A stretch of DNA of 35,862 bases from a virus (Duplodnaviria; Caudoviricetes): positions 1 through 35,862 of the IMG/VR virus record IMGVR_UViG_3300021437_000271; one strand, given 5' to 3'. Shown here in pieces: positions 6,441-22,433 of the stretch (position 1 is the first letter of the stretch; each line of letters starts with the position of its first letter). A model generated the notes under the pieces. That model did no database searches. It had not been told where the DNA came from and saw only the letters and a program-made list of their open reading frames with translations. The translations under genes and the position numbers were made by a program.

Positions 6441-9251
6441 TCACACCAAATTGGATTGCGTTGCAAATGTGGCCACGGCCGATACCAAGATCCACTGGCA
6501 GGTATTGTCCGCGATCCCCTGGCCAGTAGGGCCGCCGCTGGCTGCAGAGGTTCCGGTTGCCACCAGCTTGTAGATGCTGCCGCCGTTGCTGACCAGCGTG
6601 CCGAGTGTCCCGTAGCCAGTGCTGGCAGCCCAGGCCGTTGCCGGCTGCAGGCCGATCTGGCACCACACACAGCCACCCGTCGCACCATCCACGATGCCCG
6701 TACCCACGCCAGTAGGGCCGCCGCTGGCCGCTGATGTGCCGCTGGTGAGCATCATCCGGTAGGTGTTGCCGCCGTTACTGACGATCGAGCCAAACTTGTA
6801 CACAGTGCTGGCGGTCCAAGCCGCTGGCGTGATGAGGCCCGCCCACGTCCACTGGCAGGTGTTGTCCACGATGCCGGAGCCGGACGGGCCGCCAGCGGCT
6901 GCAGAGGTGCCGGCAGCCGTGCAGGCGTAGACGTTCGAGCCGTTCTTGCGCCGCTGGCCGACCGTGTAGGCGGTGCTGGCTGCCCACGACTTCGCCAGCT
7001 CACCGCCGAGCGAGCATGTCCAGCCATTGGCGGCGGAGGCCGCCGAAGCCGAGTTGCCGACCGGATTACCCTGAGCGTACCGGCCGTGCTCGCCGGCAAT
7101 GTCAGGCTTCGCGCTCGACAGCCTGATGGCAGGATCGTCCTTAATGCCTGGGCCGGCCCAGACTGCGATGGGGGCCCCATCAGGGACGCAGCCAAGCGCC
7201 GTGACGCTGAAACTGAACAACTTCAGTGCGTTCGTTCCATTCACGAGCATCACACGGAAGAAGGCCACGGATTGAGAGAAAGTAAATGTCCCCTGTCTAA
7301 ACCCGTCACCAGTAGTTCCATACGCATTGCCATACACGGCGGCGTAAGAAAGGGTAGCCGTTGAACGAACGTCAGGATATGTCGGTGACGTGTTGGTTAG
7401 TGGATTCCCATTGTAGTCAAAACACTGGATGTAAATGCGTCCCGTAAAACCCGGGATGGTGTTTGACGAAATATGGAAATTTCTGGTTGTTGGGCACGAT
7501 ACAAATGCCCCAACACCCATATTCCCGCCATTTGCTAAGAAATACTCTACGCCATTTTCGTAGCCTACATCCAAACTGCCATTCGTAAGCGTCTTCGATA
7601 TGGTTGCATTATTCTGGACAAAGTGGAAAGGACCGCTAATGTAGGCCGTATTTGCTGCCTGCCCAGAAATAAACGACGAAATATCCCCGCTTAACCAAGT
7701 TTGATTATTACGATTGGCTCGCCACGTAGGAAGGTACTGATTTCCATAGGCGCCGTTGATCTGAGAAATATCAGCAACAGTAGGTACAAGCTCCGAAGAG
7801 TAACCCATGTCATAGATATTATCTACAACTGCGTTGGCATTATTATTGCCATCGCAAATTGCAAAAACTCCAGAGTTTGACTCGTGGCGCGGATCACCCC
7901 AGTAACAATAACTACCTGCGCCAGCATGCCAAATTGGGACACGGACTAGATTTGTTGAGTTTCCGCCCATTTCATAGGCGCGACCCCACCAACGGTTATT
8001 ATTTATGGAAGACGGGTGGACGGAATCGTAGGTACAGAAAACCGTTCCGTACGCCGAGCCAAGGCCGTTTGTGGAGCTGGAACACGCAACACTACCGGAG
8101 TAGATGTTATTGTCATTGATGTTCCCAGAACTGTTATACGTGCGGAATACCTCGCCGTACTTGCAATCCTGAATCTTCTTGATCTTGATATCGTTGTAAT
8201 TTGCCCCGGCACCAGCGCTTGAGGCCACCACATAGCCACACGTTGCGTTTTCGACGCGGAGGATATCGATTGAGCACTCGATTGGGTCGTTCAGCAGCAG
8301 CGTCACATCATCGGGCGCAGTGCCGAGCATGGGGGTCCATGCATCCCACGACAGCGTGGTGTTGCGGCAGTCGAGCACCATCCGCTGCTTGATGTTCGGC
8401 GTGCCCGCTGTGCCGATGGTCACTGCGATCGCTGGACGTGCGCCAGTGTAGATCGTGTATGTGCCCGTCATGTCGATCGGGATGTTTGGCGGCAGAACAA
8501 TCGCGCCAGTATGGGGATACCCACCAGACTGTGGCAGCAAGCGCAGGCCAAGTCCGTTCGCTGCAGCGTAAGCGCCGGCAGCATTGCTGGCGGTGTGCCA
8601 GGAACCTGACACCATGCCACCGAAGCGCGGATCAGTGACTGTCACCCATTTTCTCAGGTTGCTCCCGATTTCTGAGGCGAGCGCCTCCAGATTGGTGGAA
8701 ATCCAATAATCAGGAGAATCTTGTAATGCAACTTGACCAGCAAATTGAGATCCGCCGATTACCTGAAAATTTGTACCATCATATAATACCTGAACACCAA
8801 TTCCAGAAAATAGCACCGCTGGGGATGTTCCAGATAATATTGGTTTTGCCCCAAGCCCATTGATATTTAAAGTTGGCGCTGATGAACTTGTGCCTGCTGC
8901 GACAAACTGAAACACCTGACCTGCAATGTAGTTAGTTGGCGCCGGCATCAAAACGGCTGTTATTGTATCTGAACCAGAAATGCCAGTTAGATATTGCAAT
9001 GACCCATCAGCAAGCTGGCCAAGATTTACCGCATCAGTTCGAGCTGAGCCAGAACCAAGGTTGATCAGCTTGAACCCACCCATCGGAAGATTGTTTGTTG
9101 GCGGCGCCTGACCATCGCGCGGCATCGAGTTGGTGAGCTCGGCGGCAATGTCGGCCATGGTCGGATTGGCCCACCCGGTCGTGATCTGCGTTCCGGTGAC
9201 AACCGGATTGGTCGAGTGCAGGCTGAAAGTGCCGTTTCCTAAGCGTGGCAT
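6441..9251 (-). CDS. tailspike / receptor-binding protein (virion anchor, probable beta-helix, three C-terminal CBM-like repeats)
   Basis: N-terminal RDGQ.P.T.NLPMGGFKL.NLG...DAVNLGQL anchor; Asn/Gly-rich centre; W(A/T)AST.Y repeats; last gene of the tail module. Confidence 0.85.
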   Translation of the reverse strand: MPRLGNGTFSLHSTNPVVTGTQITTGWANPTMADIAAELTNSMPRDGQAPPTNNLPMGGFKLINLGSGSARTDAVNLGQLADGSLQYLTGISGSDTITAVLMPAPTNYIAGQVFQFVAAGTSSSAPTLNINGLGAKPILSGTSPAVLFSGIGVQVLYDGTNFQVIGGSQFAGQVALQDSPDYWISTNLEALASEIGSNLRKWVTVTDPRFGGMVSGSWHTASNAAGAYAAANGLGLRLLPQSGGYPHTGAIVLPPNIPIDMTGTYTIYTGARPAIAVTIGTAGTPNIKQRMVLDCRNTTLSWDAWTPMLGTAPDDVTLLLNDPIECSIDILRVENATCGYVVASSAGAGANYNDIKIKKIQDCKYGEVFRTYNSSGNINDNNIYSGSVACSSSTNGLGSAYGTVFCTYDSVHPSSINNNRWWGRAYEMGGNSTNLVRVPIWHAGAGSYCYWGDPRHESNSGVFAICDGNNNANAVVDNIYDMGYSSELVPTVADISQINGAYGNQYLPTWRANRNNQTWLSGDISSFISGQAANTAYISGPFHFVQNNATISKTLTNGSLDVGYENGVEYFLANGGNMGVGAFVSCPTTRNFHISSNTIPGFTGRIYIQCFDYNGNPLTNTSPTYPDVRSTATLSYAAVYGNAYGTTGDGFRQGTFTFSQSVAFFRVMLVNGTNALKLFSFSVTALGCVPDGAPIAVWAGPGIKDDPAIRLSSAKPDIAGEHGRYAQGNPVGNSASAASAANGWTCSLGGELAKSWAASTAYTVGQRRKNGSNVYACTAAGTSAAAGGPSGSGIVDNTCQWTWAGLITPAAWTASTVYKFGSIVSNGGNTYRMMLTSGTSAASGGPTGVGTGIVDGATGGCVWCQIGLQPATAWAASTGYGTLGTLVSNGGSIYKLVATGTSAASGGPTGQGIADNTCQWILVSAVATFATQSNLV

Positions 9252-9301: not shown

Positions 9302-9592
9302 ATGGCGATGAACGAGCAATTCTTGGTGGCCTTGCTGCGGCCATTCGTTCACCTGGCAATCTGGGTGGTATTCATCTGGCCGGCCACCTGGGCCGTGAGG
9401 CGCTACATGCGCGATGGGCCACTGAAGCGGTTATTGCTCAAGCGCTGGGGCGACGGTGGGGGCGAGCGCATTGACGGTCGTGGCGCTCCCTGCGGTGCTG
9501 GTGTAGCGGCGCAGCAGCTCGGCCATCGCCTGGGATTTCAGTGCGGCCGGTGCATTCGAGGCCTGAAGCGCCTTGATCGTCAGCTCAGGTGA
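9302..9592 (+). CDS. small counter-oriented membrane protein (possible superinfection exclusion moron)
   Basis: MAMNEQFLVALLRPFVHLAIWVVFIWPATWAVRRYMRDGPLKRLLLKRW fills the gap between the ejection gene and the tailspike; 3' part overlaps 9431-11215. Confidence 0.5.
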   Translation: MAMNEQFLVALLRPFVHLAIWVVFIWPATWAVRRYMRDGPLKRLLLKRWGDGGGERIDGRGAPCGAGVAAQQLGHRLGFQCGRCIRGLKRLDRQLR

Positions 9593-11215
9593 CAGCAAGG
9601 TGTCGCCGATCTTCTGCAGTACCTGCGGCTCAGCGAGCTGGCCTGCGTACTGCGCAGGCGCCAGCAGGGTGCGCAGCAGCGTGTTTTTGGCGACGGCATC
9701 CGGCGCGCCGAACGGCCCAAGCACGCTGCGGATGATGTTCTGACTCACGAGGTTCTGAGCAGTGTCGCTTCCTGGTGCTGCCGCCAGCTTGGTGGCATTG
9801 CTGCTGCGCGCCAGATCCTGTGCCACCGAGTTGAGTGTCGCCACATGCTCGGCCGGCAGCACGCTGTCGAGCGTCGCCGAAGGAATGCCGGTGATGCGCC
9901 GGGCTGCAGCGTCGCCGCCGCGCAGCGCCTGCGCGTAGGCGGCCGTGTTGAGGCCGCCAGATCCACCAAAGTCGTTGATGGAAGGAACCAGCTTGTCGAG
10001 CATGTGCTGGCCGACGTCCATCTCATTGATCGGCTTGGACATGGCTGCATAGGTGTCCATGGCGTCGCCGTAGAGCGGGCTCAGATTGCGGATGCCCGTG
10101 ACCAGATCGTTTTTCAGACCGGTGTAACCGGCGGCCAGCGCCGGGTTCTTCTCGATCGAAATCATCCCGTCCAGCGCCATCTTGGTCCAATGCAGTCCAT
10201 CGATCACGGATGAGTCATTCATCGGTGTGCCGTTGACCTGGGCAATCTCGCGCGCCGTGTTCAGCACCGGCTGTGGGACGCGAGATTGGAACTTCACGAT
10301 GTTGGCCTGAGCCTCCGGCGTCAGCGCCTCCGGATCGAAGCCGGCCTTGCGTGCAGCGCCATACATCTCGTTGGCAACTGCATCCCGATCGGCGGCGAAG
10401 TAGTCACGCTGTCCAACATCGCCCGCAACCGTGCGCACAGCCGCAACCCGTGCAGCATTCTGGCCTTGGGTGCGCGTCTGAAAGGCATCGCGCACTGGTG
10501 GGCTGAGCTGCTGCACTTGCTTCTGCAGCTGCGCCAGGCCAGCGGTGCCGGCCGCCTCCGCCGCCGTCGGCTTCGATCCCGGCACCAACTCTGCACCGCC
10601 TGCTTTGAGCTTGGCAATGGTTCCCGCCGTGTCCGGCACGAACTGGCGCAAGGCATCGACCAGCATCTTCTGCCGGCCGCTTTCAAAGAAAGGCTGCAGC
10701 GTGGATTTGACGAGCCCGTATCCTGACTGCAGCGCGCGGCCAGCGATGTTCCCGGCTGCGCCGCCAACGTAACCGCCCAGTGTGTCGGCCACCGCTTCGC
10801 CAGACGTCAGGTGCGGCTGAGCCCACCCGAGCAGCGCGCCGACGCCAGCCGCACCCGCCAAGCCGTTGACACCAGGAATGGCAGCAGTCGGCAGCGCTGC
10901 AACAACACTGCCAGCCAGATGACCGGCACGGCCGCCGCCCGTTTTCATCAGGGCATCATCCAGCCGGCGAGATTCGGCAATGTCATCGGTGGACACCAGA
11001 CCGAGCTTCTGGCCAACGCCGCGCCCCAGATCTGTCATGGCCTTGCCGGCCCCCGCCAGGCCAAGCTGAAGCGGCGACATGCCTTCGGTCGGATCAGCCG
11101 TCAGTGGCGGCAGCACGCTGGCGGCATGGATTCGATCTTCCCAGTTCGTCGGTGCCGGCATCGTCGCAACAGCTGGCGCGAGCCGGTCTTCCCAGTTGTT
11201 CGAGGTCGAGGCCAT
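9431..11215 (-). CDS. internal virion / DNA ejection protein (large)
   Basis: 594 aa, Ala/Gly-rich helical, GxxxG-rich hydrophobic stretch near the N-terminus; podovirus ejection position. Confidence 0.7.
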   Translation of the reverse strand: MASTSNNWEDRLAPAVATMPAPTNWEDRIHAASVLPPLTADPTEGMSPLQLGLAGAGKAMTDLGRGVGQKLGLVSTDDIAESRRLDDALMKTGGGRAGHLAGSVVAALPTAAIPGVNGLAGAAGVGALLGWAQPHLTSGEAVADTLGGYVGGAAGNIAGRALQSGYGLVKSTLQPFFESGRQKMLVDALRQFVPDTAGTIAKLKAGGAELVPGSKPTAAEAAGTAGLAQLQKQVQQLSPPVRDAFQTRTQGQNAARVAAVRTVAGDVGQRDYFAADRDAVANEMYGAARKAGFDPEALTPEAQANIVKFQSRVPQPVLNTAREIAQVNGTPMNDSSVIDGLHWTKMALDGMISIEKNPALAAGYTGLKNDLVTGIRNLSPLYGDAMDTYAAMSKPINEMDVGQHMLDKLVPSINDFGGSGGLNTAAYAQALRGGDAAARRITGIPSATLDSVLPAEHVATLNSVAQDLARSSNATKLAAAPGSDTAQNLVSQNIIRSVLGPFGAPDAVAKNTLLRTLLAPAQYAGQLAEPQVLQKIGDTLLSPELTIKALQASNAPAALKSQAMAELLRRYTSTAGSATTVNALAPTVAPALEQ

Positions 11216-11216
11216 G

Positions 11217-13208
11217 TCAGTTCAGGATTCCGAGTTGTCGAGCCTGCCGGGCTTTCTGCAGGAATCCGGCGCGCTCAGTGGCAGGCATCAGGCTGAGGAT
11301 GCGAGCCCGTTCCTGGTCGCTGGCGGCATGCTCGATCTGCCACAGGCGCGGGTCAGCCATTGGCGAGAACTTGGTCTCGAAGTCAGCGTAGGCCTGCGGG
11401 CTCGTGGTGTTCGGATTCGGAGCAACTTTGTCCTTTGCGATCAGCATGCGCTGATAGGCAATCAGCTCCTGAGCGGCCTCCTTGATCGCCGGGCCGTTCA
11501 TGGTCTTTGCGTTCGGGTTGGATGCCTCCGCTAGCGCCTGTAGCGCGTCGGTTCCTCCGCTGCCGGCGGCTTGCCGCTGAGCGCCGACCAGCATGTTGAG
11601 GTTCTTGACCATGATCTGGTAGTTCTGCGCCAAGTCCTTGCCGACGGGAATGCCAAGCGTCTGCAACACGCCGTTCACAAACTGCAGCTTGTCAGCGCCG
11701 GGTCCGGCCAGCGTCTTGTCGGCCAGCTGTTCGATCGACTGCAGCAGGGCGATGGCGCGCGGCGCGGCGGTGGTGGCCTGGGTGTGCAGGTCGTTGTATG
11801 ACTGCACGGCGTTCTTGGCTGTGCCTTCTCCCAGGGCGTTGGCGGTGGCAGCCTGGCCGAGCGCCGGGCCCGTCTGGATACCTGGCGCACGGCTTGGAGC
11901 AGCGACACGCGGCGCCACTCGTGCAATCTCGCGGTCGATCGCAGCCAGATCGGCTGGAGGCGCTCCACTGGTCACCATGCGTTGCCGCTCCTGCTGCAGA
12001 ATGGCCAGCGAGTCGGCGCCGTAGCTGTTCACCGACCCGCCGGCAGCGGCCGTTCGATCCGGTGCGCTGCGCGCACTGATGGGCGGCGCACCGGTGGCCT
12101 GCACGGGCGGAACACCGGAAAGTCCGGGCACCTGCGGTGGGGTCAGCACGTTGCCGACGTAGTTTCGGTACGGCGCACCGGTTGCCGGGTCGAAGCCCTC
12201 GACCAGCTGGAACGGAGCCTTGCCGCTTTCCTTGGCGGCCGTCGCGGCAGTCATGGCGCCGACACCGCCCGGCACCGGCACGATCTGCCATCCGGTCGGC
12301 GTCTGCACCGCCTGGAAACCCTCAGGCACCTGCGGCAGCTGATCGCGGGTGCCGTTCGGGTTCTGCACGTAGCCGCCGGGGCGCAGGCTGGTCGGAGCGA
12401 TATAGTTCTGCTTCGTGATGTTGTTGCGCAGCACCTGCTGGCCTTGAGGCGATGCCGGGTCGATGCCGGCGCTCAGCAGCGTCTTTGTCAGGTCAGTGCG
12501 GTTGTCCGTGCGCGAAAGGAACTCTTTCGTGTAGGCCTCAGGCCCGCCAAGCAGCATGGCCGCCATTGCGCGCTGTGGCGTCATGCCGGGCATGGCGAGC
12601 GGGCCGCCCCCTGATGATGGCGGCAAGCTTGGCGCCGGCACTCCGGTGGGCGCCGGCTGAGGCTGCATCGGCGCAGCTGCCGCCGGCTGCTGTCGAAGCA
12701 TGTCGGCCATCAGAGCCGCATTCTGGTTTGTCGGCCCAACGCTGCCGGATGCTGCGCCCGCGCCGAGCGCGGCCTCTGCCGGGCTCGGGGTAGCAGCTGC
12801 TGATGAGGTTGGCGTCGGATCACCAGACCCGTCTGGCGGTGTCGCTGCTGCCGCCGGCTGATCGCCGAAGATCATCGACCGCATCGCGGCGCCTTGGCCT
12901 TGTGCGATGCTGAGATTTGTCTTGGCGAGCTCGACGGCTTTCTGGTTGGCCTCGTCTTGCGTATCTCGCGCCATCTTCCCCATCAAAATCTTCGAGATCG
13001 CCTCAAGTGGCCCGATGCGAGCTACCCGACCGCCCGGAACTGTCCGGTTTTGGTCGATGGGCGAAAAGGCCTGCTGTCGAAGCATTTGTGCATAGATCTG
13101 GGCCTGTTGGGCTTGCTGTTGCTGCAACGCCTGGTCTGCATAGAGCTGCCCCTGCTCTGGGCTCTGCTGCACGAGCAGCGCGGCCATTGGGCTGATGGCT
13201 TGCGGCAT
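11217..13208 (-). CDS. internal virion / DNA ejection protein
   Basis: 663 aa, Gln/Ala/Pro-rich; position in the ejection cluster. Confidence 0.7.
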   Translation of the reverse strand: MPQAISPMAALLVQQSPEQGQLYADQALQQQQAQQAQIYAQMLRQQAFSPIDQNRTVPGGRVARIGPLEAISKILMGKMARDTQDEANQKAVELAKTNLSIAQGQGAAMRSMIFGDQPAAAATPPDGSGDPTPTSSAAATPSPAEAALGAGAASGSVGPTNQNAALMADMLRQQPAAAAPMQPQPAPTGVPAPSLPPSSGGGPLAMPGMTPQRAMAAMLLGGPEAYTKEFLSRTDNRTDLTKTLLSAGIDPASPQGQQVLRNNITKQNYIAPTSLRPGGYVQNPNGTRDQLPQVPEGFQAVQTPTGWQIVPVPGGVGAMTAATAAKESGKAPFQLVEGFDPATGAPYRNYVGNVLTPPQVPGLSGVPPVQATGAPPISARSAPDRTAAAGGSVNSYGADSLAILQQERQRMVTSGAPPADLAAIDREIARVAPRVAAPSRAPGIQTGPALGQAATANALGEGTAKNAVQSYNDLHTQATTAAPRAIALLQSIEQLADKTLAGPGADKLQFVNGVLQTLGIPVGKDLAQNYQIMVKNLNMLVGAQRQAAGSGGTDALQALAEASNPNAKTMNGPAIKEAAQELIAYQRMLIAKDKVAPNPNTTSPQAYADFETKFSPMADPRLWQIEHAASDQERARILSLMPATERAGFLQKARQARQLGILN

Positions 13209-13209
13209 G

Positions 13210-13818
13210 TCAGTCCTTTCCGAATCGTGCGGCCGCCGAGCTGAGCTTGCTGGCAGTCATCATGGCGTTTTGCAGCACGAGGTTTTGCAACTCATCCGGG
13301 ATGCGGTCGAGCATGCGCTGCACGTCAGCGCCGTGATCCACATCATGGGTTGCGTGGTACCGAAGCGTCTTGAGCAATGCCGTGCCGTGCAGCGCTTCCA
13401 GCTCTTCCACCACATCCAGAGGCATCGGGGAGCACTCCAGCACCGCCATGTAGCCGAGCAGCGCTGCCGGGTGCGCATGGTGCGCCAGGTAGTACTGCAC
13501 TCCTGCCAGCTCGGCTGCAGCCAGGTTCAGTTTTTGGCTGATCGGATCCACATCAACGGCCTTCAGATCGGTCGCCAGCCATTCAGCGTGGTCCCGCTCC
13601 TCTTCAAGATGGGCACGGTAGTAGCGCAACAGATCCAGATCAAAACCATGTGGCGAGGAAGCATGCAGCCTCAGGATGGCGGCCTTGATCAACTGCTCGC
13701 TGGCCACGATCAACTGGTGAACGAACACGAGGTTGTCGATCAGCACACGAGGATTGCGCAAATCAGCGCAGATGCTGATCGATCGGACGGATGACAAGAG
13801 TTTTTCAGAAAAGCTCAT
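13210..13818 (-). CDS. heme-oxygenase-like diiron oxidase (iron-containing redox enzyme, CADD/PqqC-like fold)
   Basis: H70-x3-E74-x2-H77..W..DL, GY...LE128 and H155-x3-D159-x2-H162 match the HDO diiron ligand pattern; all-helical, 202 aa. Confidence 0.85.
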   Translation of the reverse strand: MSFSEKLLSSVRSISICADLRNPRVLIDNLVFVHQLIVASEQLIKAAILRLHASSPHGFDLDLLRYYRAHLEEERDHAEWLATDLKAVDVDPISQKLNLAAAELAGVQYYLAHHAHPAALLGYMAVLECSPMPLDVVEELEALHGTALLKTLRYHATHDVDHGADVQRMLDRIPDELQNLVLQNAMMTASKLSSAAARFGKD

Positions 13819-14072
13819 CCGATATCTCCGAGCATGCCGGCGTCTGGCCCTGCCAGGTTTGGCGCAACTCCAGGCTGCTTTGGCGGCATGCCGGCAAGCC
13901 CTGGCCGCATCAGATTTTTCATCGCCAAGCCCTGCATCAGGCCATTAATGGCTGATGCCGCCGGAGATGCCCCGGGTGATTGCTGCCTAAGTAGCATGGC
14001 CATCATTTGGCGCTGCTGCTGATCTTTCATTGCCTGATCGGTTGGCGATGGCGCATTCGGGTCGAATTCCAT
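13815..14072 (-). CDS. small Gln/Met/Pro-rich probable internal virion protein
   Basis: 85 aa, QQQRQMMAMLLRQQSP; ATGA overlap with the HDO gene. Confidence 0.6.
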   Translation of the reverse strand: MEFDPNAPSPTDQAMKDQQQRQMMAMLLRQQSPGASPAASAINGLMQGLAMKNLMRPGLAGMPPKQPGVAPNLAGPDAGMLGDIG

Positions 14073-14079
14073 GCGGTAC

Positions 14080-14871
14080 TCAGTAGAAGTACATGGCCGC
14101 CATTGCGGCGGCGGTCACTTCAGAATTTGTGGTTGCCTGATTGGCATTGTTCACGCCTTGCTGCCAGTTTCCAGCCGCTTGCGTTGCCCCAAGAAGATCG
14201 GCGCCGGTTGTCTGCTGCTGCTGCGGTGCGCCAGTAAATGTCGGGCTGGTGACCTGATTTCCGGTGCGCAGCGCATTGATCTGATTGATTGGAGCATCGC
14301 GCAACGCCGTCTGCACTTGGAGTCCTTGCTGTTGCGCCTGCTGCCCCATTCCGAAACCGCTGGTGATGGCATGATCCTGAGCGTTGTTTTCATTCACGCC
14401 GAGCTGCCGCTCCATGTTGTTCCATGCCTCGGATCCTTGCGTGATGCCCTGATTCGCAGCCTGGCTCTCGGCGGTTTCCCTGTTCATCTTCAGATCGGGT
14501 GCTGCCATGCGCATGTACGCCTGCTGGCCGTTCTCGCCAGCATGCACCATGCTGGACGGGATATCGGATGCCGTGATCGGGTTTTCCATGCTGCTGCTGA
14601 TCTGGCTCAGCGTGTGGCCGCCAAGGCCGAGCAGGCCAGTTTGCAGCCCGTAGTTCTGGTCCAGCAGCCGTTGCTGTTGAGGGCTCAGCGTTTGGGTGGA
14701 TGACCACTGCCCGTCAGGCGTTGTTGGTGGCGTGTAGGTCAGGTTTCCATAAGGCGTTTGCTGGTTGACTCGGTTGGCGTTGGTCGTGTACTTGGCGGCA
14801 TCAAGGTTTCCTGATGCAGTGGCCTGCGCTGCGCCGACATAGTCTGGCGCCGGCGATGATTTACTTCCCAT
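14080..14871 (-). CDS. DNA pilot / small ejection protein
   Basis: MGSKSSPAPDY.GAA.ATA..N...NRVNQ.TPYG.L.Y N-terminus typical of podovirus pilot proteins downstream of a GNAT; Gln/Asn-rich. Confidence 0.7.
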   Translation of the reverse strand: MGSKSSPAPDYVGAAQATASGNLDAAKYTTNANRVNQQTPYGNLTYTPPTTPDGQWSSTQTLSPQQQRLLDQNYGLQTGLLGLGGHTLSQISSSMENPITASDIPSSMVHAGENGQQAYMRMAAPDLKMNRETAESQAANQGITQGSEAWNNMERQLGVNENNAQDHAITSGFGMGQQAQQQGLQVQTALRDAPINQINALRTGNQVTSPTFTGAPQQQQTTGADLLGATQAAGNWQQGVNNANQATTNSEVTAAAMAAMYFY

Positions 14872-15283
14872 GGCGGTCCTTGAGGTCGAGGAAGCGGCAC
14901 TGCTCCCGGGTCATGGTGTAGATGAGCAGATCGCCGCCTGGCGCGGCGCCGTGGATGGTTGCCTCCAGCTGGAAACCAAGGTGCTCGTCGAAGGCGCGGG
15001 CGCGGGCGTTGGCGGCATCCACCAAGCCGATGATCTTGCGCACGTGCAGCTGATTGAATGGGTAGTCAAAGGCTGCGAAGAGGAAGCCGCAATCCAGCCA
15101 ATGGGCACTACTGGCTGCGACATGGCCGCAGATTGAGGCGCCATTCCAGGCGTCGTATTTCACGCCCGCAATCAGCCTGCCGTCGCGCTCCAGGCCGATG
15201 CCGATGGCGCACGGGTCTGGCGTGCCGCCGTTGATGGCATCCACCCAGGCCACCACAGGAGCACCCGTCACGATGCGCCTCAC
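14861..15283 (-). CDS. GNAT-family acyltransferase (DUF2824/T7 gp13-like position)
   Basis: IGLERDGRLIAGV.Y, F.YPF.QL.V.K..G.V...N..A..F.EHLGF..E, GDL..Y.M.RE.CRFL. Confidence 0.85.
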   Translation of the reverse strand: MRRIVTGAPVVAWVDAINGGTPDPCAIGIGLERDGRLIAGVKYDAWNGASICGHVAASSAHWLDCGFLFAAFDYPFNQLHVRKIIGLVDAANARARAFDEHLGFQLEATIHGAAPGGDLLIYTMTREQCRFLDLKDRHGK

Positions 15284-17070
15284 AGCACACCGCCCAGTTC
15301 GTAGGTGTAGTCAGTCGAGGCCCAGCGCAGTTGCTGCGTGTTGGTGGCTGACACCATGTGCAGCGCTGCGCAGTAGCCCAGGCCGAACGCGGTCTGCCAC
15401 CCCTTCTGGTATGCGGGCGGACCCATCCAGACGGTGTTCAGTGCATCCCAGCGCGCCAGCGCACCATCCCACACCGTGGTGGGCAATGGACCGCTCGTGA
15501 TGACACCGGTCGGCGTGGACTGGTCGAAGTCAGTGTTGATGCCGATGTTCAGCGTTGGCCGGTTGTCCCATGACAGCATGGGACGCACCAGGTTGAACTT
15601 CTTGTTGGCGGTGGGCGATCCGAAGTAACAGAACGACTGCAAGGCCTCGGCCTGGATGTTGTTTCCGTCGTCGGAAACACCAACCCAGGCTTCAAGCACC
15701 TTGCCGCCGGAGCTGCCAAAAAACAGTCGGTCCTGGAACAACTCGAAGTTGTAGGACGTCCAGCCAATGAATCGGCACCACGCCTTGCTGACGGTGTTCA
15801 TGACGTACTGGTGCGACACGGTTCCGCTGATTGGCACATTCACCAGCACCATGTTTTCGCTGGGGAGAACGGCAATCTCCCAGCCATAGTTCTGTGCGTA
15901 GTTGGTGGTTGCGGCCGACATGGCCCACTGGATCTTGTTCGACAGCGCTTCGGCCACTTGGATGCGAGACGACTGCAGCGCGGCCGACAGCGGCACCAAC
16001 CCATCGCGGCCGATGATCAGGCAGTCGCCGGCAAACTTGATGGTGCTGCGCGGGCCCATGGGTGAGCCGATCGAGAACATGCCGACCAGTGCCCAGGTAG
16101 CCACCGTGCTCGGGTCGGTTCCTTTGTAGACCGCCACCTCGCCACGGCTGGTGATGATGACCAACATGTCATCGATGCCGTAGCCGGCGTCCAGCGTCCA
16201 AACGTCCATCGTGACGATGTGGCCGCCGGCCCTGAACAGCGAACTGAAATCGAACGGCTGCGCAACCCCGCCAACACTGCTGGTTGGCAGATACCAGGCA
16301 CGCAAGGTGTTCTTCTCGACGAACCAGAGCCGTTGCTTGTGAGAGCAGACGTTGCTCCACAGTCTGGTGGCGATGCCGGTGACTGCCGGCGCGTAGGTGT
16401 AGCTGCCAAGCACCGTCATCACGCCGCCGGGCGCGCCAGCAGCCGTGAAGGTGAAGGTGTTCGGGCCAGTCACCGTGATGGCCACGTTCGTGTTGTTGTA
16501 GGCCGCCGGCGTGCAGCCCGTCAACGTGACCGACATGCCAGTGGACAGCTTGTGCGGCGTCGTGGTGGTGATAGTGCAGGTGGTTCCCACCGCCGTGCCG
16601 GATGCGATGCCGGCGCCCGTGCCATCGCCAATGCTGGCCCAGCCGCTGCCGTTGTAGACCTGCATCAGGTCGATGCCGTTGACCATCACCAGAAACTGGC
16701 CGCCGGCTGAGCCCATGTGGGCCTTTTGGAACTGGCTGCTTCCAAGGCCTGACACGAGCGGAGCCCCCACAGGCCCGCTGTTCGTGATGTCGTAGATGCT
16801 GCCGCCCGACACGCCGAACAGTTTGGAGCTGCCGCCGCTGTTGTAGCTCGCGACCGTCTCGACATTGCCAGGCATGCCGGTGGCCCATGACGAGCTACCC
16901 TTTCTCACACCAACGTCATAGGGCGTCGGGAACCAGTTGTCCAGGATGACGGCGTCTTCCTTGGGCATCCGCGACAGGCTGTCACGCTGATTCCAGCCGC
17001 CCACCGGGGCCGGAACGCTGGCCACTCGCGAGCGCTGCTGGCGATTGACGCCCGAGCGATCTGGCCTCAT
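15280..17070 (-). CDS. tail nozzle / packaged-DNA stabilisation protein (P22 gp10 / tail tubular B-like) with inserted beta domain
   Basis: PAPVGGWN.RD, LDNWFP, beta-propeller-like composition, Y.GTDP...W.L.G; position after the adaptor gene. Confidence 0.8.
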   Translation of the reverse strand: MRPDRSGVNRQQRSRVASVPAPVGGWNQRDSLSRMPKEDAVILDNWFPTPYDVGVRKGSSSWATGMPGNVETVASYNSGGSSKLFGVSGGSIYDITNSGPVGAPLVSGLGSSQFQKAHMGSAGGQFLVMVNGIDLMQVYNGSGWASIGDGTGAGIASGTAVGTTCTITTTTPHKLSTGMSVTLTGCTPAAYNNTNVAITVTGPNTFTFTAAGAPGGVMTVLGSYTYAPAVTGIATRLWSNVCSHKQRLWFVEKNTLRAWYLPTSSVGGVAQPFDFSSLFRAGGHIVTMDVWTLDAGYGIDDMLVIITSRGEVAVYKGTDPSTVATWALVGMFSIGSPMGPRSTIKFAGDCLIIGRDGLVPLSAALQSSRIQVAEALSNKIQWAMSAATTNYAQNYGWEIAVLPSENMVLVNVPISGTVSHQYVMNTVSKAWCRFIGWTSYNFELFQDRLFFGSSGGKVLEAWVGVSDDGNNIQAEALQSFCYFGSPTANKKFNLVRPMLSWDNRPTLNIGINTDFDQSTPTGVITSGPLPTTVWDGALARWDALNTVWMGPPAYQKGWQTAFGLGYCAALHMVSATNTQQLRWASTDYTYELGGVL

Positions 17071-18094: not shown

Positions 18095-19255
18095 TCACTT
18101 CACCGGCTTGCCGTTGCGGGAAAGGATGGACAAGATGTTTTCTTCCCCAGGAAACACTACGTAATTGCTTGTTCCTGCGCCAGCGCTGCGAGAGTCGTCG
18201 TCTAAATATCGGATTCCTGGTATTCCTTGCGATCTAAGCGCTTGCGCTGCCTTCTTTGCACTCCCATGCTTGGCTACCGCATCCCGCCAAACATCTTCAC
18301 CTCCTGCATCCCAATCGAGCATTTTACTGATTTGGCTATCTGGCAAATCAACTTTGTAAAGCGACCCAGCATCTGAGATGCGCGGACGCCCCAAGCTTTC
18401 TGCGGCAGCCTGCATGGCAAGCGCCCTGTCTAGCTGCTCCTTGGGCATGGGCTTTAACCCCGCGTATGCATTACCGTAAAGCCGATCACGGATCGGGTTT
18501 GCTATCGCATTGAACTGATCGTTTGCAAATTTTGTGCGGGAATCATATTGGGCGCGCTGAATCGCAGAATTTATGGCGTCACTTACCGCTTGCTCATACT
18601 CGTTGCTTGGCTGCTTATCAAACTCCGCAAACGGTTTTGATAATTTTCGAGCGTATTCTTCTGCGACCTGCGGCTCTTCCGCAAAGTAAATGCCGTGCCC
18701 ATATATTTGCGCGCCTTCGCCTTTACCTATCTTGCTGGCATCGAATGCATCAAACTTGTGTGGAGATCCATGCCAGACGGTCGCAGCGAGAGACATGCCC
18801 CCGGTATCTGCCGCCCCTGCAAGCCCCATTGCAGCGCCAGCGGCTGCGCGCGGGAACTTTGCCGCCAGCGGAGCGACCGCCATCGCCGCATCAGCCGTGT
18901 CCTGCGGGATCAGCGGCACATTCGCCTTGCCGGCGTTGGTCAGCGGCTGGCCGTAGCTGTAGCGGTCGAGCGTGCGCTGCACTGCAGGCAAGCCGATCAG
19001 GTTCGATGCAGCCGACAGCGCCGGGTTGGCCAAGCCGCCCGGCATCGTCGGGTCCGGCCGGCTTGCATAGCCCGTCAGCGCCCCCAGCGCGTCTGCTGCG
19101 TAGCCTGCCAGCGGGTTGGTGCGCGGTGTCGCGCTCAAGTAGCCCTGCATGGGGTTCGGTTGTGCGACCAGATAGTCGGGGCCGACAGAGTTGGCCGGCT
19201 GCTGATCAGGCTGAGGATCACCCCTCAGAAGTCTGGCAAGCATCTGCAGGTCCAT
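18095..19255 (-). CDS. putative virion-delivered protein with C-terminal ADP-ribosyltransferase-like (ART-PolyVal-type) domain
   Basis: VWHGSPHKFDAFD..KIG.GEGAQ.YG.GIYFAE....A..Y, GSLYKVDLPD, GIPGIRYLD..SR...GTSNYVVF; Ala/Pro-rich N-terminal ~155 aa. Confidence 0.7.
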   Translation of the reverse strand: MDLQMLARLLRGDPQPDQQPANSVGPDYLVAQPNPMQGYLSATPRTNPLAGYAADALGALTGYASRPDPTMPGGLANPALSAASNLIGLPAVQRTLDRYSYGQPLTNAGKANVPLIPQDTADAAMAVAPLAAKFPRAAAGAAMGLAGAADTGGMSLAATVWHGSPHKFDAFDASKIGKGEGAQIYGHGIYFAEEPQVAEEYARKLSKPFAEFDKQPSNEYEQAVSDAINSAIQRAQYDSRTKFANDQFNAIANPIRDRLYGNAYAGLKPMPKEQLDRALAMQAAAESLGRPRISDAGSLYKVDLPDSQISKMLDWDAGGEDVWRDAVAKHGSAKKAAQALRSQGIPGIRYLDDDSRSAGAGTSNYVVFPGEENILSILSRNGKPVK

Positions 19256-20473: not shown

Positions 20474-21412
20474 TCAGGTGATGGCGCCCTGAGCCAACGG
20501 GTAGGTACCCCATACCAGCGCCATGTTGGCCGGAAGCGTCCAGGTACCGGATGCACCCGAGCCAAACGAGGCCGCCAGCGCGCTGCAAAACTGGGCGCCC
20601 TGCATCTGCTTCGAGGCCAAGGCCACCGTAGTCAGGAAGCCGCCCAGACTGGATCCGCCACCGCCATTCCAGTAGGTCTGCGCGCCGACAGCTGGCGCGC
20701 CAGCTGCATAGGACACCGCCGCCCCGCCCACCTGGAACCACGCGAACTGTCCGCCGAACGGATTTGCCGGGCTGCTGCTCGCCGTGGTGGCTAGCGGGTT
20801 ACCCAGCGACCAACCCAGCGTAAGTCCGCTGTTGGCGGCGCCGGTCCAGGCCTGGGCCTGCAGGATGAGCTGCCCGAACGAATCCTTCGCGTGGGTGAAC
20901 TGCACCACCTGACCAGCACCGATGCCGGGCACGTAGGTCCCCAGCGTGGTGGCATTGCCAGTAGGCAGCGCCGCATTGGCCTTGTTCGACACGTTCAGGT
21001 TCGACGGATTCCAGGCCGGGTCCGTGATCGAGTTCGCGTTGAAGGTCAGCGTGGTGGTACTGGGCACCGTGGCGACAGTGAACAGTCCGTTGTAGCCGGC
21101 AGGCACAAATCCGGCAAGCTGGATCACCGCGCCCACGCTCAGGCCGTGAGCCGATCCAGTGGTCAGCGTCGCTGTGTTGCCGCTGATCGTCAGCGACGAA
21201 ACGCTTTGGGCCGCCAGAGGCGCGACCTGCGCGAACATGAAAAACCCGCCACCCAGCACCGGATCGACACCGTCAACGCCGCCGCTCGGGTACGCAAATC
21301 GGCCGAATTTGCCGGCGCTGGCGCCCGTGAGGGAGTACGGCCCGGGGCCGCTGTTGTCGGGCAGGTAGAGGTCTACCAAGCCCATCAGGGAGTCTTGTGC
21401 AACGAAAGCCAT
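20474..21412 (-). CDS. capsid decoration / cement protein with inserted beta domain
   Basis: Immediately after the major capsid gene; RBS AAGGAG before the ATG at 21412; DP.LGGG.F.F and GQF.WFQV.G.A motifs. Confidence 0.65.
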   Translation of the reverse strand: MAFVAQDSLMGLVDLYLPDNSGPGPYSLTGASAGKFGRFAYPSGGVDGVDPVLGGGFFMFAQVAPLAAQSVSSLTISGNTATLTTGSAHGLSVGAVIQLAGFVPAGYNGLFTVATVPSTTTLTFNANSITDPAWNPSNLNVSNKANAALPTGNATTLGTYVPGIGAGQVVQFTHAKDSFGQLILQAQAWTGAANSGLTLGWSLGNPLATTASSSPANPFGGQFAWFQVGGAAVSYAAGAPAVGAQTYWNGGGGSSLGGFLTTVALASKQMQGAQFCSALAASFGSGASGTWTLPANMALVWGTYPLAQGAIT

Positions 21413-21443
21413 TTCGGGCTCCTTTCGTGAGTTGGTTTCGGTC

Positions 21444-22433
21444 TCAGGCGCTGAGGACGCCCTGCAGGAAGGCATTCGACAGCGTGAGGTTGCCAGCGAA
21501 CCCGAGTAATTTGACCATGGCATCCTGGTTGACTGCGAACCGGTCATCACCGATCGGGGCGAAGAAACGATCGACATGCGGCCGGAAGTAGACGTATTCG
21601 GTGTTCAGCATGTACATGCTGTTGACCGGCGCACCGCCGCCGTAGCCGCCGTCCAGCACCACGTCGGCGCCCATGTACTTGAGGCTCTGAAAGCCAGCCT
21701 GCGCCATCTCTTCAGACTGGACGCGCTGGATGGCCTGCAGGCTCTCCAGGTAAAGGCGGTAGTAGTTGTTGTCGGCAACGATCAGGTCAACCGCGTCCGC
21801 GCCGCGCACCAGCTGCAGGTACAGCCGGTTCATGTAGCTCTGGATATTGGCCGAGGTGGTCGGCGCGCCGCCGTTGGTGACGCCGCTGAATGCCGCATTG
21901 CGGAAAAAGCTACCGACCGTGGTGCTGCGATCGATGCCGCCGACCACGCCGCTGGTGGGTGATGTGCTGACCAGCAGCTGGACACCGCCGATCTGCCGAC
22001 CGCCATCGGCGGTGCCGTCCGAGTACATGTCGAGCGCGATGTTGTTGGTCATCGTCTTCTCGGCGTTGCTGATCCGGCTTTCGAGCAGGTCGATGATCTG
22101 TTCGGGGCCATTGTTCTGCAGCATCTCCAGGCCGCTGATCGACACCGCCACAGCCGCCTGAGCGTAGTTGTACTCGGCCGCTGTGAACACGTCGCTTGGG
22201 CTGATGTTCAGCGCCTCGTAGCCGCTGTAGCGCTTGAACGTGCCGTTCTGGGCGTATTCGATCTCCTGGACGATCGTGCGGCCGCCGGGCACCTTCTTGA
22301 TCTTGCCCTTCTTCTTCAGGCGGTTCAGCAGCGCGTTGTTCTTGGTGACGTTGTCCTGCAGCTTGCCGGTTCGGTTGCGCAGGGTCGTGGTGACGATTTC
22401 CGTCATCGTGGACGATGGGTTGACGAGTGCCAT
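21444..22433 (-). CDS. major capsid protein (HK97 fold)
   Basis: TTTLRNR...L.DNV..NNALL..L, GG..I, YSGYE.L, ISGLE..QN.G...IIDLL..R, AGF.SLKY.GADVV.D; follows the scaffold gene. Confidence 0.92.
   Translation of the reverse strand: MALVNPSSTMTEIVTTTLRNRTGKLQDNVTKNNALLNRLKKKGKIKKVPGGRTIVQEIEYAQNGTFKRYSGYEALNISPSDVFTAAEYNYAQAAVAVSISGLEMLQNNGPEQIIDLLESRISNAEKTMTNNIALDMYSDGTADGGRQIGGVQLLVSTSPTSGVVGGIDRSTTVGSFFRNAAFSGVTNGGAPTTSANIQSYMNRLYLQLVRGADAVDLIVADNNYYRLYLESLQAIQRVQSEEMAQAGFQSLKYMGADVVLDGGYGGGAPVNSMYMLNTEYVYFRPHVDRFFAPIGDDRFAVNQDAMVKLLGFAGNLTLSNAFLQGVLSA

What the first reader, a model, noticed from the sequence alone, without database searches (positions are those of the whole stretch)
13210..15283. 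Heme-oxygenase-like diiron enzyme embedded in the ejection-protein operon with a GNAT: candidate virion-protein modification system
Seen: gene order nozzle - GNAT - pilot - 85-aa protein - HDO - two large ejection proteins, all co-oriented. The HDO overlaps its upstream gene (ATGA) and sits 1 nt from the downstream start. All six expected diiron ligands are intact (E74, H77, E128, H155, D159, H162). It has no promoter gap and no obviously foreign composition, so it does not look like a casual moron. Known: HDO enzymes (CADD, UndA, SznF, BesC) perform oxidative C-C cleavage, decarboxylation and N-oxygenation, and CADD attacks a protein tyrosine; I know of no role for them in phage morphogenesis. 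Inference: the pilot protein begins MGSKSS (free N-terminal Gly, an acylation-type terminus) and ends abruptly in a hydrophobic AAAMAAMYFY. The GNAT could modify one end and the HDO the Tyr-rich other end, a RiPP-like maturation of an ejected protein for membrane entry or defence evasion. Alternatively the HDO is itself packaged and injected.
Basis: partly seen in the sequence, partly recalled or inferred. Interest (0 to 1): 0.85.

Follow-up and report, generated by a model that had tools for sequence, protein, structure and literature searches.

The report
Phage iron enzyme finishing injection-protein tip
This phage carries a gene for a predicted two-iron oxidase beside its DNA-injection genes, and because related phages with this gene almost always have a neighbouring predicted injection protein ending in a bare greasy Phe/Tyr tip, the enzyme likely oxidises that tip, which would be a previously undescribed way of maturing a virus particle protein.

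Summary
Observation confirmed. The 202-aa ORF (13210-13818, minus strand) has a heme-oxygenase-like fold, and its six iron ligands are invariant in 115 of 115 homologs. Of 57 viral homolog loci, 55 place it in the nozzle-GNAT-pilot block. After dereplication, pilots end in Phe/Tyr in 46 of 49 HDO-carrying lineages, against 4 of 35 enzyme-free ones; 9 tree-independent pairs agree (p about 0.008). The same position is alternatively filled by a PAPS-reductase-like ATPase or by an S74 chaperone fused to the pilot, and no two of these co-occur in 181 loci. The link survives where the HDO gene lies far from the pilot. A bacterial sister clade sits beside RiPP-like precursors that also end in Phe/Tyr (11 of 14). 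One natural HDO-GNAT fusion exists. A co-fold with the pilot tip gives weak support (0.45 against 0.02). Best reading: the HDO oxidises the pilot's C-terminal aromatic residue, most likely by decarboxylation; the chemistry and purpose are inferred. The GNAT is general to the family, not HDO-specific. Against: adjacent genes can co-transfer, aromatic tips work without an HDO in tectiviruses, and there is one counterexample. Ten literature searches found no phage HDO role.

The parts
13210..13818 (-). HDO: heme-oxygenase-like diiron enzyme, 202 aa, predicted 3His/3carboxylate site (E74, H77, E128, H155, D159, H162)
   Evidence: PF14518 31.9 bits; ligands invariant in 115 of 115; AlphaFold2 pLDDT 97.4; Z 20.7 to 3dde (rmsd 2.5, 197 aligned) and Z 19.0 to CADD 8va9 (rmsd 2.4, 191 aligned)
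13815..14072 (-). 85-aa Q/P/M-rich small protein; no family hit; likely a small ejection-type protein and not needed for the HDO link
   Evidence: no Pfam or PHROG hit; similarly placed small Q-rich ORFs occur in HDO-less loci; HDO abuts the pilot without it in 46 of 49 lineages
14080..14871 (-). Pilot / DNA-transfer protein (P22 gp7-like), 263 aa; its blunt hydrophobic C-terminus AAAMAAMYFY (about 14083-14112) is the proposed substrate
   Evidence: phrog_6121 virion structural protein E 1.8e-25; ESM Atlas feature hit 0.95, 184 shared features, to a cluster with PF25688 P22_gp7 on 46% of members; covariation
14861..15283 (-). GNAT acyltransferase, present throughout this phage family
   Evidence: phrog_4470 E 8.6e-38; family profile hits 39 PDB sequences, all named acetyltransferases, best E 1.6e-7; no Pfam hit at 0.05
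15280..17070 (-). Nozzle / tail stabilisation protein (P22 gp10-like by lead only; PHROG label 'amidase')
   Evidence: phrog_5107; relatives annotated stabilisation, neck or tubular tail B protein; Atlas hit to PF11134 Phage_stabilise at rank 15; no PDB sequence hit
11217..13208 (-). 663-aa large ejection-type protein (assigned by position and low-complexity sequence)
   Evidence: no family hit; homologs follow the HDO in many loci
9431..11215 (-). 594-aa large ejection-type protein (assigned by position)
   Evidence: only a weak phrog_790 hit, E 0.009; homologs in the same position

Best explanation
The phage gene at 13210-13818 encodes a predicted O2-using diiron enzyme that likely binds the bare hydrophobic C-terminus of the neighbouring pilot, a likely DNA-ejection protein, and likely oxidises its last Phe/Tyr residue, most probably by removing the terminal carboxylate. 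Shown by calls: the fold, the ligand set, the gene slot, the covariation with a terminal Phe/Tyr, and mutual exclusion with two other tip-handling modules. Inferred: that it acts in the infected cell before packaging; that the reaction is benzylic C-H oxidation with loss of CO2, giving a styryl-enamide end that might hydrolyse further to a C-terminal amide (about 0.4 for decarboxylation, about 0.2 for desaturation, hydroxylation or cross-linking); and the purpose, a charge-free membrane-inserting tip or masking of a nonpolar C-terminal degron or stress signal (recalled biology, not tested). The enzyme is an optional finishing step, not a universal requirement.
For: (1) Slot: 48 of 57 viral loci classify as nozzle-pilot-HDO, and 7 of the other 9 also have the HDO in an ejection or tail block. 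(2) Covariation at 95% nozzle clusters: terminal F/Y in 46 of 49 HDO, 4 of 35 enzyme-free and 9 of 14 ATPase lineages; Fisher p 2.6e-15 for HDO against none, and 30 of 32 against 2 of 29 at 70% clustering. On a FastTree nozzle tree of 130 rows the HDO state changes at least 23 times; independent pairs HDO against none go 7.9 the same way and 0.0 the other way of 9 (median p 0.008), and 15.7 against 0.0 of 18 for HDO against all others. (3) The residue before the S74 'SD' motif (taken as the cleavage site from recall) is F/Y in only 14 of 35, against 46 of 49 with HDO (p 7e-8), so the HDO tightens the terminal requirement. (4) HDO, ATPase and fused S74 never co-occur within 181 loci. (5) The link holds without adjacency: in L018/G001 the HDO lies before the terminase, about 10 kb from a pilot ending LGFAMF; in L012 it precedes the GNAT and the pilot ends AAKFF. 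(6) In podophage-like loci outside the nozzle family, the gene upstream of the HDO ends in F/Y in 8 of 9. (7) The bacterial sister clade shares the pocket motifs and lies beside small precursors ending in F/Y in 11 of 14 loci examined, four of them close kin; 2 of 6 precursors scanned pass the aroma-sacti cut-off, and both larger neighbours with hits match radical-SAM families below cut-off. (8) P0158 is an HDO-GNAT fusion, its GNAT half 39% identical to the window's GNAT. (9) Co-fold of HDO + 2 Fe + last 34 pilot residues: score 0.45, best of 3 controls 0.02, runs share at least 71% of contacts, partner pLDDT 46-51; the tool rates this weak (at 0.60 or under, 18 of 157 solved complexes and both passing mismatches of 215 reach the mark). 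(10) Precedent for the chemistry: the HDO UndA decarboxylates fatty acids (PMC13108848); the HO-like VarO desaturates a RiPP (PMC6511847); ZjuDC and MftC decarboxylate a C-terminal Tyr (PMC12871766).
Against: No enzyme assay or mass spectrum exists. The pilot tip and the HDO are usually adjacent, so they can move together by one recombination: the nearest relative L151 is 63% identical over the pilot, diverges in the last helix and lacks the HDO. Only two loci break adjacency with the pilot visible. Aromatic blunt tips exist without an HDO: 4 of 35 enzyme-free lineages, one of them a complete genome with neither enzyme (L156/G002; positive control for the HDO profile). In tectivirus-like genomes the P11-position protein ends in F or F-x with or without an HDO, so that case does not discriminate. 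L128 has an HDO after a pilot ending LLFSNYEDN, and 3 of 49 HDO pilots end in Leu (2 xFL, 1 AAL). L081 and L083, short contigs, show the HDO beside unrelated small genes. S74-type pilots would be expected to keep a free carboxylate after cleavage (recalled), so losing it cannot be essential. The HDO loci were collected through the HDO and the controls through nozzle and capsid; the classes are not one random sample.
Confidence: 0.6

Rival explanations
1. The HDO binds and shields the greasy pilot tip until packaging (a holdase role in place of the S74 chaperone) without changing it covalently.
For: It is mutually exclusive with the fused S74 chaperone (0 co-occurrences in 181 loci); binding alone would explain the F/Y preference and the weak co-fold pass.
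Against: All six metal ligands are kept in 115 of 115 homologs and shared with the bacterial RiPP-like clade; the other alternative gene is also enzyme-like, with invariant SGGKDS and Cys motifs.
Confidence: 0.13
2. The HDO is a metabolic or self-sacrificing moron (CADD-like, or acting on a small molecule) that hitchhikes with one family of pilot 3' ends; the F/Y tips reflect shared ancestry of the cassette.
For: Lower GC3 of the cassette; the swap point lies inside the pilot's last helix; HDO occurs in only 2 of 84 clusters collected without reference to it; characterised HDOs act mostly on fatty or amino acids (PMC13108848 section 4); CADD is a near structural neighbour.
Against: The terminal F/Y is kept among pilots and HDOs that are only about 25-55% identical to the window's; the link persists at a distance (L018, L012) and in unrelated podophages; bacterial sisters also sit beside F/Y-ended peptides; no promoter of its own; exclusion with S74 and the ATPase has no reason under this view.
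Confidence: 0.1
3. The HDO modifies another morphogenesis substrate: the 85-aa protein, a large ejection protein, or the GNAT's acyl product at the pilot N-terminus.
For: Translational coupling to both neighbours; the HDO-GNAT fusion P0158; HDO placed directly before the GNAT in L012, L019, L020 and L082.
Against: The 85-aa gene is absent between pilot and HDO in 46 of 49 lineages; the GNAT and the N-terminal motif do not track the HDO; the pilot C-terminus does. The downstream proteins' termini were not tested for covariation.
Confidence: 0.1
4. The HDO is packaged and injected as an effector against host defence or metabolism.
For: It lies among ejection genes.
Against: It is a compact, well-folded globular protein and relocates next to terminase or capsid genes. 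In phage JC1, which has the analogous GNAT-virion protein-'PAPS reductase' order, the virion proteome text lists the middle protein gp64 but neither enzyme (PMC9144972 passages; the table was cut at its end); this is an analogy only.
Confidence: 0.05

Closest known systems
HDO superfamily (UndA, CADD, AetD, HrmI; structural-genomics Sden_3740 / 3dde)
   Same: Heme-oxygenase-like helical fold (Z 20.7 to 3dde, 19.0 to CADD, 18.6 to HrmI, 16.8 to UndA) and the 3His/3carboxylate ligand set described in PMC13108848 section 4.
   Different: Only 12-18% identity to these; phage-encoded; proposed substrate is the end of a 260-560 aa virion protein. The review has 0 occurrences of 'phage'.
VarO of thiovarsolin biosynthesis (HO-like RiPP dehydrogenase)
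   Same: HO-like enzyme credited with modifying a ribosomal peptide (PMC6511847 passages).
   Different: VarO desaturates an Arg side chain in a small natural product; here the target is a terminal aromatic residue on a structural protein. VarO's sequence was not compared.
RiPP C-terminal oxidative decarboxylases (MftC, ZjuDC, EpiD, ApyH, BotCYP)
   Same: The proposed reaction: loss of the C-terminal carboxylate, for MftC and ZjuDC from a terminal Tyr (PMC12871766 passages).
   Different: Different folds and cofactors (radical SAM, 2OG/Fe, flavin, MNIO, P450); none of the five listed is an HDO or a phage protein.
Actinobacterial aroma-sacti clusters (NF045560 precursor + radical SAM + HDO)
   Same: Sister clade with the same motifs, next to small precursors ending in F/Y.
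   Different: Short leader-core precursors instead of a virion protein; no paper held uses the term, so these are uncharacterised as far as the library shows.
Podophage ejection module with GNAT: Brucella phage Pr, Myxococcus Mx8 (S74-fused pilots); JC1/Bcep22 (GNAT-gp64-'PAPS reductase')
   Same: Same nozzle-GNAT-pilot order; S74 on the Pr and Mx8 pilots; an enzyme gene after the virion protein in JC1.
   Different: An HDO instead of S74 or the ATPase; the JC1 paper treats both enzymes as metabolic or regulatory morons. No isolated phage among 50,697 records has the HDO.

Membership tests
HDO superfamily | Heme-oxygenase-like helical bundle fold | tested here: met
   AF2 pLDDT 97.4, all-helical; Foldseek and VIA top hits are TenA/HO-like, CADD and UndA
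HDO superfamily | 3His/3carboxylate ligand motif in sequence | tested here: met
   E74 H77 E128 H155 D159 H162 invariant in 115 of 115; kept in 92-93 of 93 phage rows and 27 of 27 bacterial rows
HDO superfamily | Ligands cluster into a dimetal site in three dimensions | not tested
HDO superfamily | PF14518 above the gathering threshold | tested here: met
   31.9 against 28.9 bits
HDO superfamily | Fe- and O2-dependent oxidation of a substrate | not testable with these tools
   Needs an assay
CADD-type self-sacrificing pABA synthase | Folate or pABA gene context | tested here: not met
   55 of 57 viral loci are in virion ejection blocks; 15% identity to CADD
CADD-type self-sacrificing pABA synthase | Sacrificial Tyr and Lys at CADD-equivalent positions | not tested
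   No residue-level structural alignment was returned; Y110 and Y123 are near-invariant
RiPP biosynthetic system | Short precursor with a leader peptide or RRE | tested here: not met
   The partner is a 263-aa virion-type protein with no NCBIfam precursor hit; lowers 'is a RiPP', not 'works like one'
RiPP biosynthetic system | Maturase gene co-varies with a conserved core-end motif on a ribosomal product | tested here: met
   46 of 49 against 4 of 35; independent pairs
RiPP biosynthetic system | Demonstrated post-translational modification | not testable with these tools
   Needs mass spectrometry
P22-like ejection module | gp7-like pilot followed by two large ejection proteins after the nozzle | tested here: inconclusive
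   Order fits (three-protein scheme in PMC8954989); the pilot matches P22_gp7 only by Atlas features; the two large proteins have no family hit
Moron / auxiliary metabolic gene | Own promoter and terminator, independent of the operon | tested here: not met
   No promoter-like site and no minus-strand terminator (sigma-70 consensus only); overlapping starts and stops

The most novel reading that the evidence does not exclude
Tailed phages, and some tectiviruses, have taken over a RiPP-type diiron maturase to decarboxylate the C-terminal aromatic residue of the first-ejected pilot protein. Together with an interchangeable ATP-dependent capping enzyme, a self-cleaving S74 domain and an N-terminal GNAT, this defines an unrecognised layer of enzymatic end-finishing of ejection proteins, and a new HDO reaction on whole proteins.
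Probability: 0.45. Interest if true: 0.92.

Novelty: new variant of a known kind. Interest (0 to 1): 0.8.

Why it matters
Only about a dozen HDOs are functionally validated, mostly on fatty or amino acids (PMC13108848 section 4). This subfamily (237 clusters at 50% identity with E up to 1e-30) comes with a predicted substrate that can be read from the genome, in both phages and orphan bacterial RiPP-like clusters, so one peptide assay could assign both. For phage biology it would mean that ejection proteins, usually studied as unmodified recombinant proteins, are chemically finished at their ends and that this step can depend on oxygen and iron. It would also reinterpret genes now labelled morons or auxiliary metabolic genes. 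A C-terminal Phe/Tyr decarboxylase that accepts whole proteins would be a useful protein-labelling tool.

Tried and rejected
Single-sequence PDB search: nothing below E 0.14; the profile found only 3dde at E 3e-4. Single-sequence locus search: 2 weak, uninformative hits. No HDO among 50,697 isolated phage records. The tectivirus case was first read as independent support (capsid matches PRD1 P3 at E 2e-85) and then dropped: HDO-less relatives and PRD1 P11 end similarly, and P11 homology was not significant. ATPase class against enzyme-free class by independent pairs was not significant (5.4 against 0.0 of 8, p 0.06). The prediction that enzyme-free pilots with F/Y ends have a distant HDO or ATPase failed in 5 of 5 records, only 1 of them complete (the ATPase profile had no positive control). 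Longer fused forms of 376-2000 aa: none (weak evidence). The fusion P0158 could not be traced to DNA and is a one-member cluster on 2 contigs. The pilot-tip alignment A7 was out of register, so the co-fold used the single sequence. No RNA holder listed. Rows dropped before counts: 3 of 181 loci with under 900 bases after the pilot were left out; 4 of 134 representatives with short nozzles were left out of the trees; 13 mis-called rows were excluded from the pilot seed; loci without both a nozzle and a complete pilot were not classed. 'None' means no hit within the fetched flank. Literature searches that found no phage role for an HDO and no HDO C-terminal decarboxylase: (the one prophage hit is an integration-site mention). 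The library lacks most subscription papers. The degron search gave one eukaryote-centred paper, seen as a listing only, so degron and stress-signal ideas are recalled. In bioRxiv 10.64898/2026.05.18.726046, 'acetyl', 'GNAT' and 'modif' occur 0 times. No supplements were read.
Full report
Observation. The window is a podophage-like virus record (portal, terminase and adaptor hits; G000 is a virus record). The 202-aa protein passes PF14518 (31.9 against 28.9 bits) and folds confidently (pLDDT 97.4). It matches heme-oxygenase-like proteins: Z 20.7 to 3dde (rmsd 2.5, 197 aligned), 19.0 to CADD (2.4, 191) and 16.8 to UndA (2.8, 198) (Foldseek agrees). E74, H77, E128, H155, D159 and H162 are invariant in 115 of 115 aligned homologs (115 of the 120 listed), which fits the 3His/3carboxylate set of HDOs (PMC13108848 section 4). 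The GNAT is real. The pilot resembles P22 gp7. A contig from another study spans the HDO, the 85-aa gene and the pilot's 3' part without gaps.

The slot is conserved. The HDO profile fetched 57 viral, 66 metagenome (one is the window itself) and 22 genome loci. Of the 57 viral loci, 48 class as nozzle-pilot-HDO. Three more are partial or have the HDO before the GNAT, four are other podophage-like ejection blocks, one has it before the terminase and one is tectivirus-like. The profile finds 237 clusters at 50% identity with E up to 1e-30, but no isolated phage carries it.

The decisive comparison. Relatives were collected without reference to the HDO, through nozzle and capsid (best 80 each of truncated scans). 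In 181 loci with a nozzle and a complete pilot, the pilot is followed by an HDO (74), followed by a roughly 230-aa SGGKDS PAPS-reductase-like protein (20), carries a fused Peptidase_S74 domain (42), or has none of these (42, plus 3 truncated). No locus has two. After clustering at 95% nozzle identity, the pilot ends in Phe or Tyr in 46 of 49 HDO, 9 of 14 ATPase and 4 of 35 enzyme-free lineages (Fisher 2.6e-15 for HDO against none). All 14 ATPase pilots end in a blunt hydrophobic stretch, against 12 of 35 enzyme-free ones. The HDO state changes at least 23 times on a FastTree nozzle tree, and independent pairs give 7.9 against 0.0 of 9 (p 0.008) versus enzyme-free phages. In S74 pilots the same hydrophobic helix precedes the SD motif, but with F/Y in only 14 of 35. 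The HDO is the rare option: 2 of 84 clusters in the unbiased sample. The GNAT and an MG[S/G/K]K-type start occur in all classes.

Is it only linkage? The nearest relative L151 shares 63% of the pilot, diverges in the last helix and lacks the HDO, so tip and enzyme travel as a cassette, and co-transfer is a real confound. Three things argue for function. First, L018/G001 has the HDO about 10 kb from a pilot that still ends LGFAMF, and L012 has it before the GNAT with a pilot ending AAKFF. Second, in podophage-like loci outside this nozzle family the upstream gene ends in F/Y in 8 of 9. Third, the bacterial sister clade, which keeps the same pocket motifs, lies beside small precursors ending in F/Y in 11 of 14 loci examined (four are close kin), two of which pass the aroma-sacti NCBIfam cut-off, with radical-SAM-like neighbours. 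One 328-aa protein fuses the HDO to this family's GNAT (single cluster, 2 contigs). A co-fold of the HDO, two irons and the last 34 pilot residues scored 0.45 against 0.02 for the best control, rated weak by the tool.

Results against. Aromatic blunt tips do not need an HDO: 4 of 35 enzyme-free lineages have them, including one complete genome (control 125). Tectivirus-like genomes carry the HDO just before a PRD1 P3-like capsid gene, but their P11-position proteins end in F or F-x whether or not the HDO is present. L128 is a counterexample, and L081 and L083 show other neighbours on short contigs. The ATPase association is not significant on the tree.

Mechanism. Shown: fold, ligands, slot, covariation and exclusion. 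Inferred: the enzyme recognises the last aromatic residue and oxidises it in the cytoplasm before packaging. A peptide's last residue has no free alpha-amine, which makes reactions on free amino acids unlikely (inference). A terminal Phe/Tyr offers benzylic C-H bonds next to a carboxylate, matching UndA-type decarboxylation and the terminal-Tyr decarboxylations of MftC and ZjuDC (PMC12871766 passages). The alternative ATPase would fit activation of the same carboxylate (inference from its PP-loop-type motif). VarO shows that an HO-like enzyme can modify a ribosomal peptide (PMC6511847 passages). The gp14/gp7 class is thought to insert in the outer membrane first (PMC8954989 passages), so a charge-free tip or a masked nonpolar degron is a plausible purpose; this part is recalled and untested. 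In JC1 the analogous GNAT and 'PAPS reductase' are called morons and are not named among virion proteins, while the protein between them is (PMC9144972 passages).

Novelty. It is a member of the HDO superfamily by fold and motif. It is not a CADD by context and not a RiPP by definition, but it likely works like a RiPP maturase on a virion protein. Searches found no such role in print within the held library. Two earlier AI notes of this scan reached a similar reading for the ATPase in this slot; they were seen after my own result and are not counted as evidence. Verdict: real, conserved and testable; 0.6 that the HDO covalently oxidises the pilot tip; interest 0.8.

Noticed in passing
L170:10441-11136, L186:6399-7082, L270:14745-15455 and 17 more loci: A roughly 230-aa PAPS-reductase-like protein (SGGKDS, CC and CxxC motifs) fills the same slot after pilots with blunt hydrophobic ends and never co-occurs with the HDO or S74.
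   Followed up: partly
L006:7995-8621, L066:8001-8624, L079:2230-2841, L107:6032-6469: The same HDO clade occurs in tectivirus-like genomes between the packaging ATPase region and a PRD1 P3-like capsid gene (capsid not reached in the truncated L107), a jump between unrelated virus groups.
   Followed up: partly
L132:8618-8827, L136:7884-8736, L137:3879-4870, L138:7031-8495, L145:7553-8579: Actinobacterial clusters of an aroma-sacti-like precursor ending in F/Y and an HDO, in some cases with a radical-SAM-like enzyme and a large cyclase/ATPase-like protein; apparently uncharacterised RiPP-like pathways.
   Followed up: partly
P0158 (328 aa, longest contig 41,512 bases): Natural fusion of the HDO with the virion-module GNAT; DNA not recovered.
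   Followed up: partly
window 18095-19255 (-): ART-PolyVal ADP-ribosyltransferase-like gene (35 bits against cut-off 31.2) between the head-region genes and the adaptor, with low GC3 (0.61); possible counter-defence moron.
   Followed up: no
window 15280-17070 and 20474-21577 (-): The nozzle (residues about 155-229) and the 367-aa ORF share a small inserted domain (phrog_9998, phrog_5838; weak E1_FCCH on the nozzle).
   Followed up: no
window 6441-9251 (-): 936-aa tailspike-like gene with a CBM_5_12 module and low GC (0.55), likely a swapped receptor-binding module.
   Followed up: no
L128:939-1838: Pilot upstream of an HDO ends LLFSNYEDN, resembling a remnant of the S74 junction; possibly a recent cassette swap or a sequence error.
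   Followed up: no
L249:16326-18176: A pectate-lyase-like, tailspike-type protein follows the pilot-position gene.
   Followed up: no
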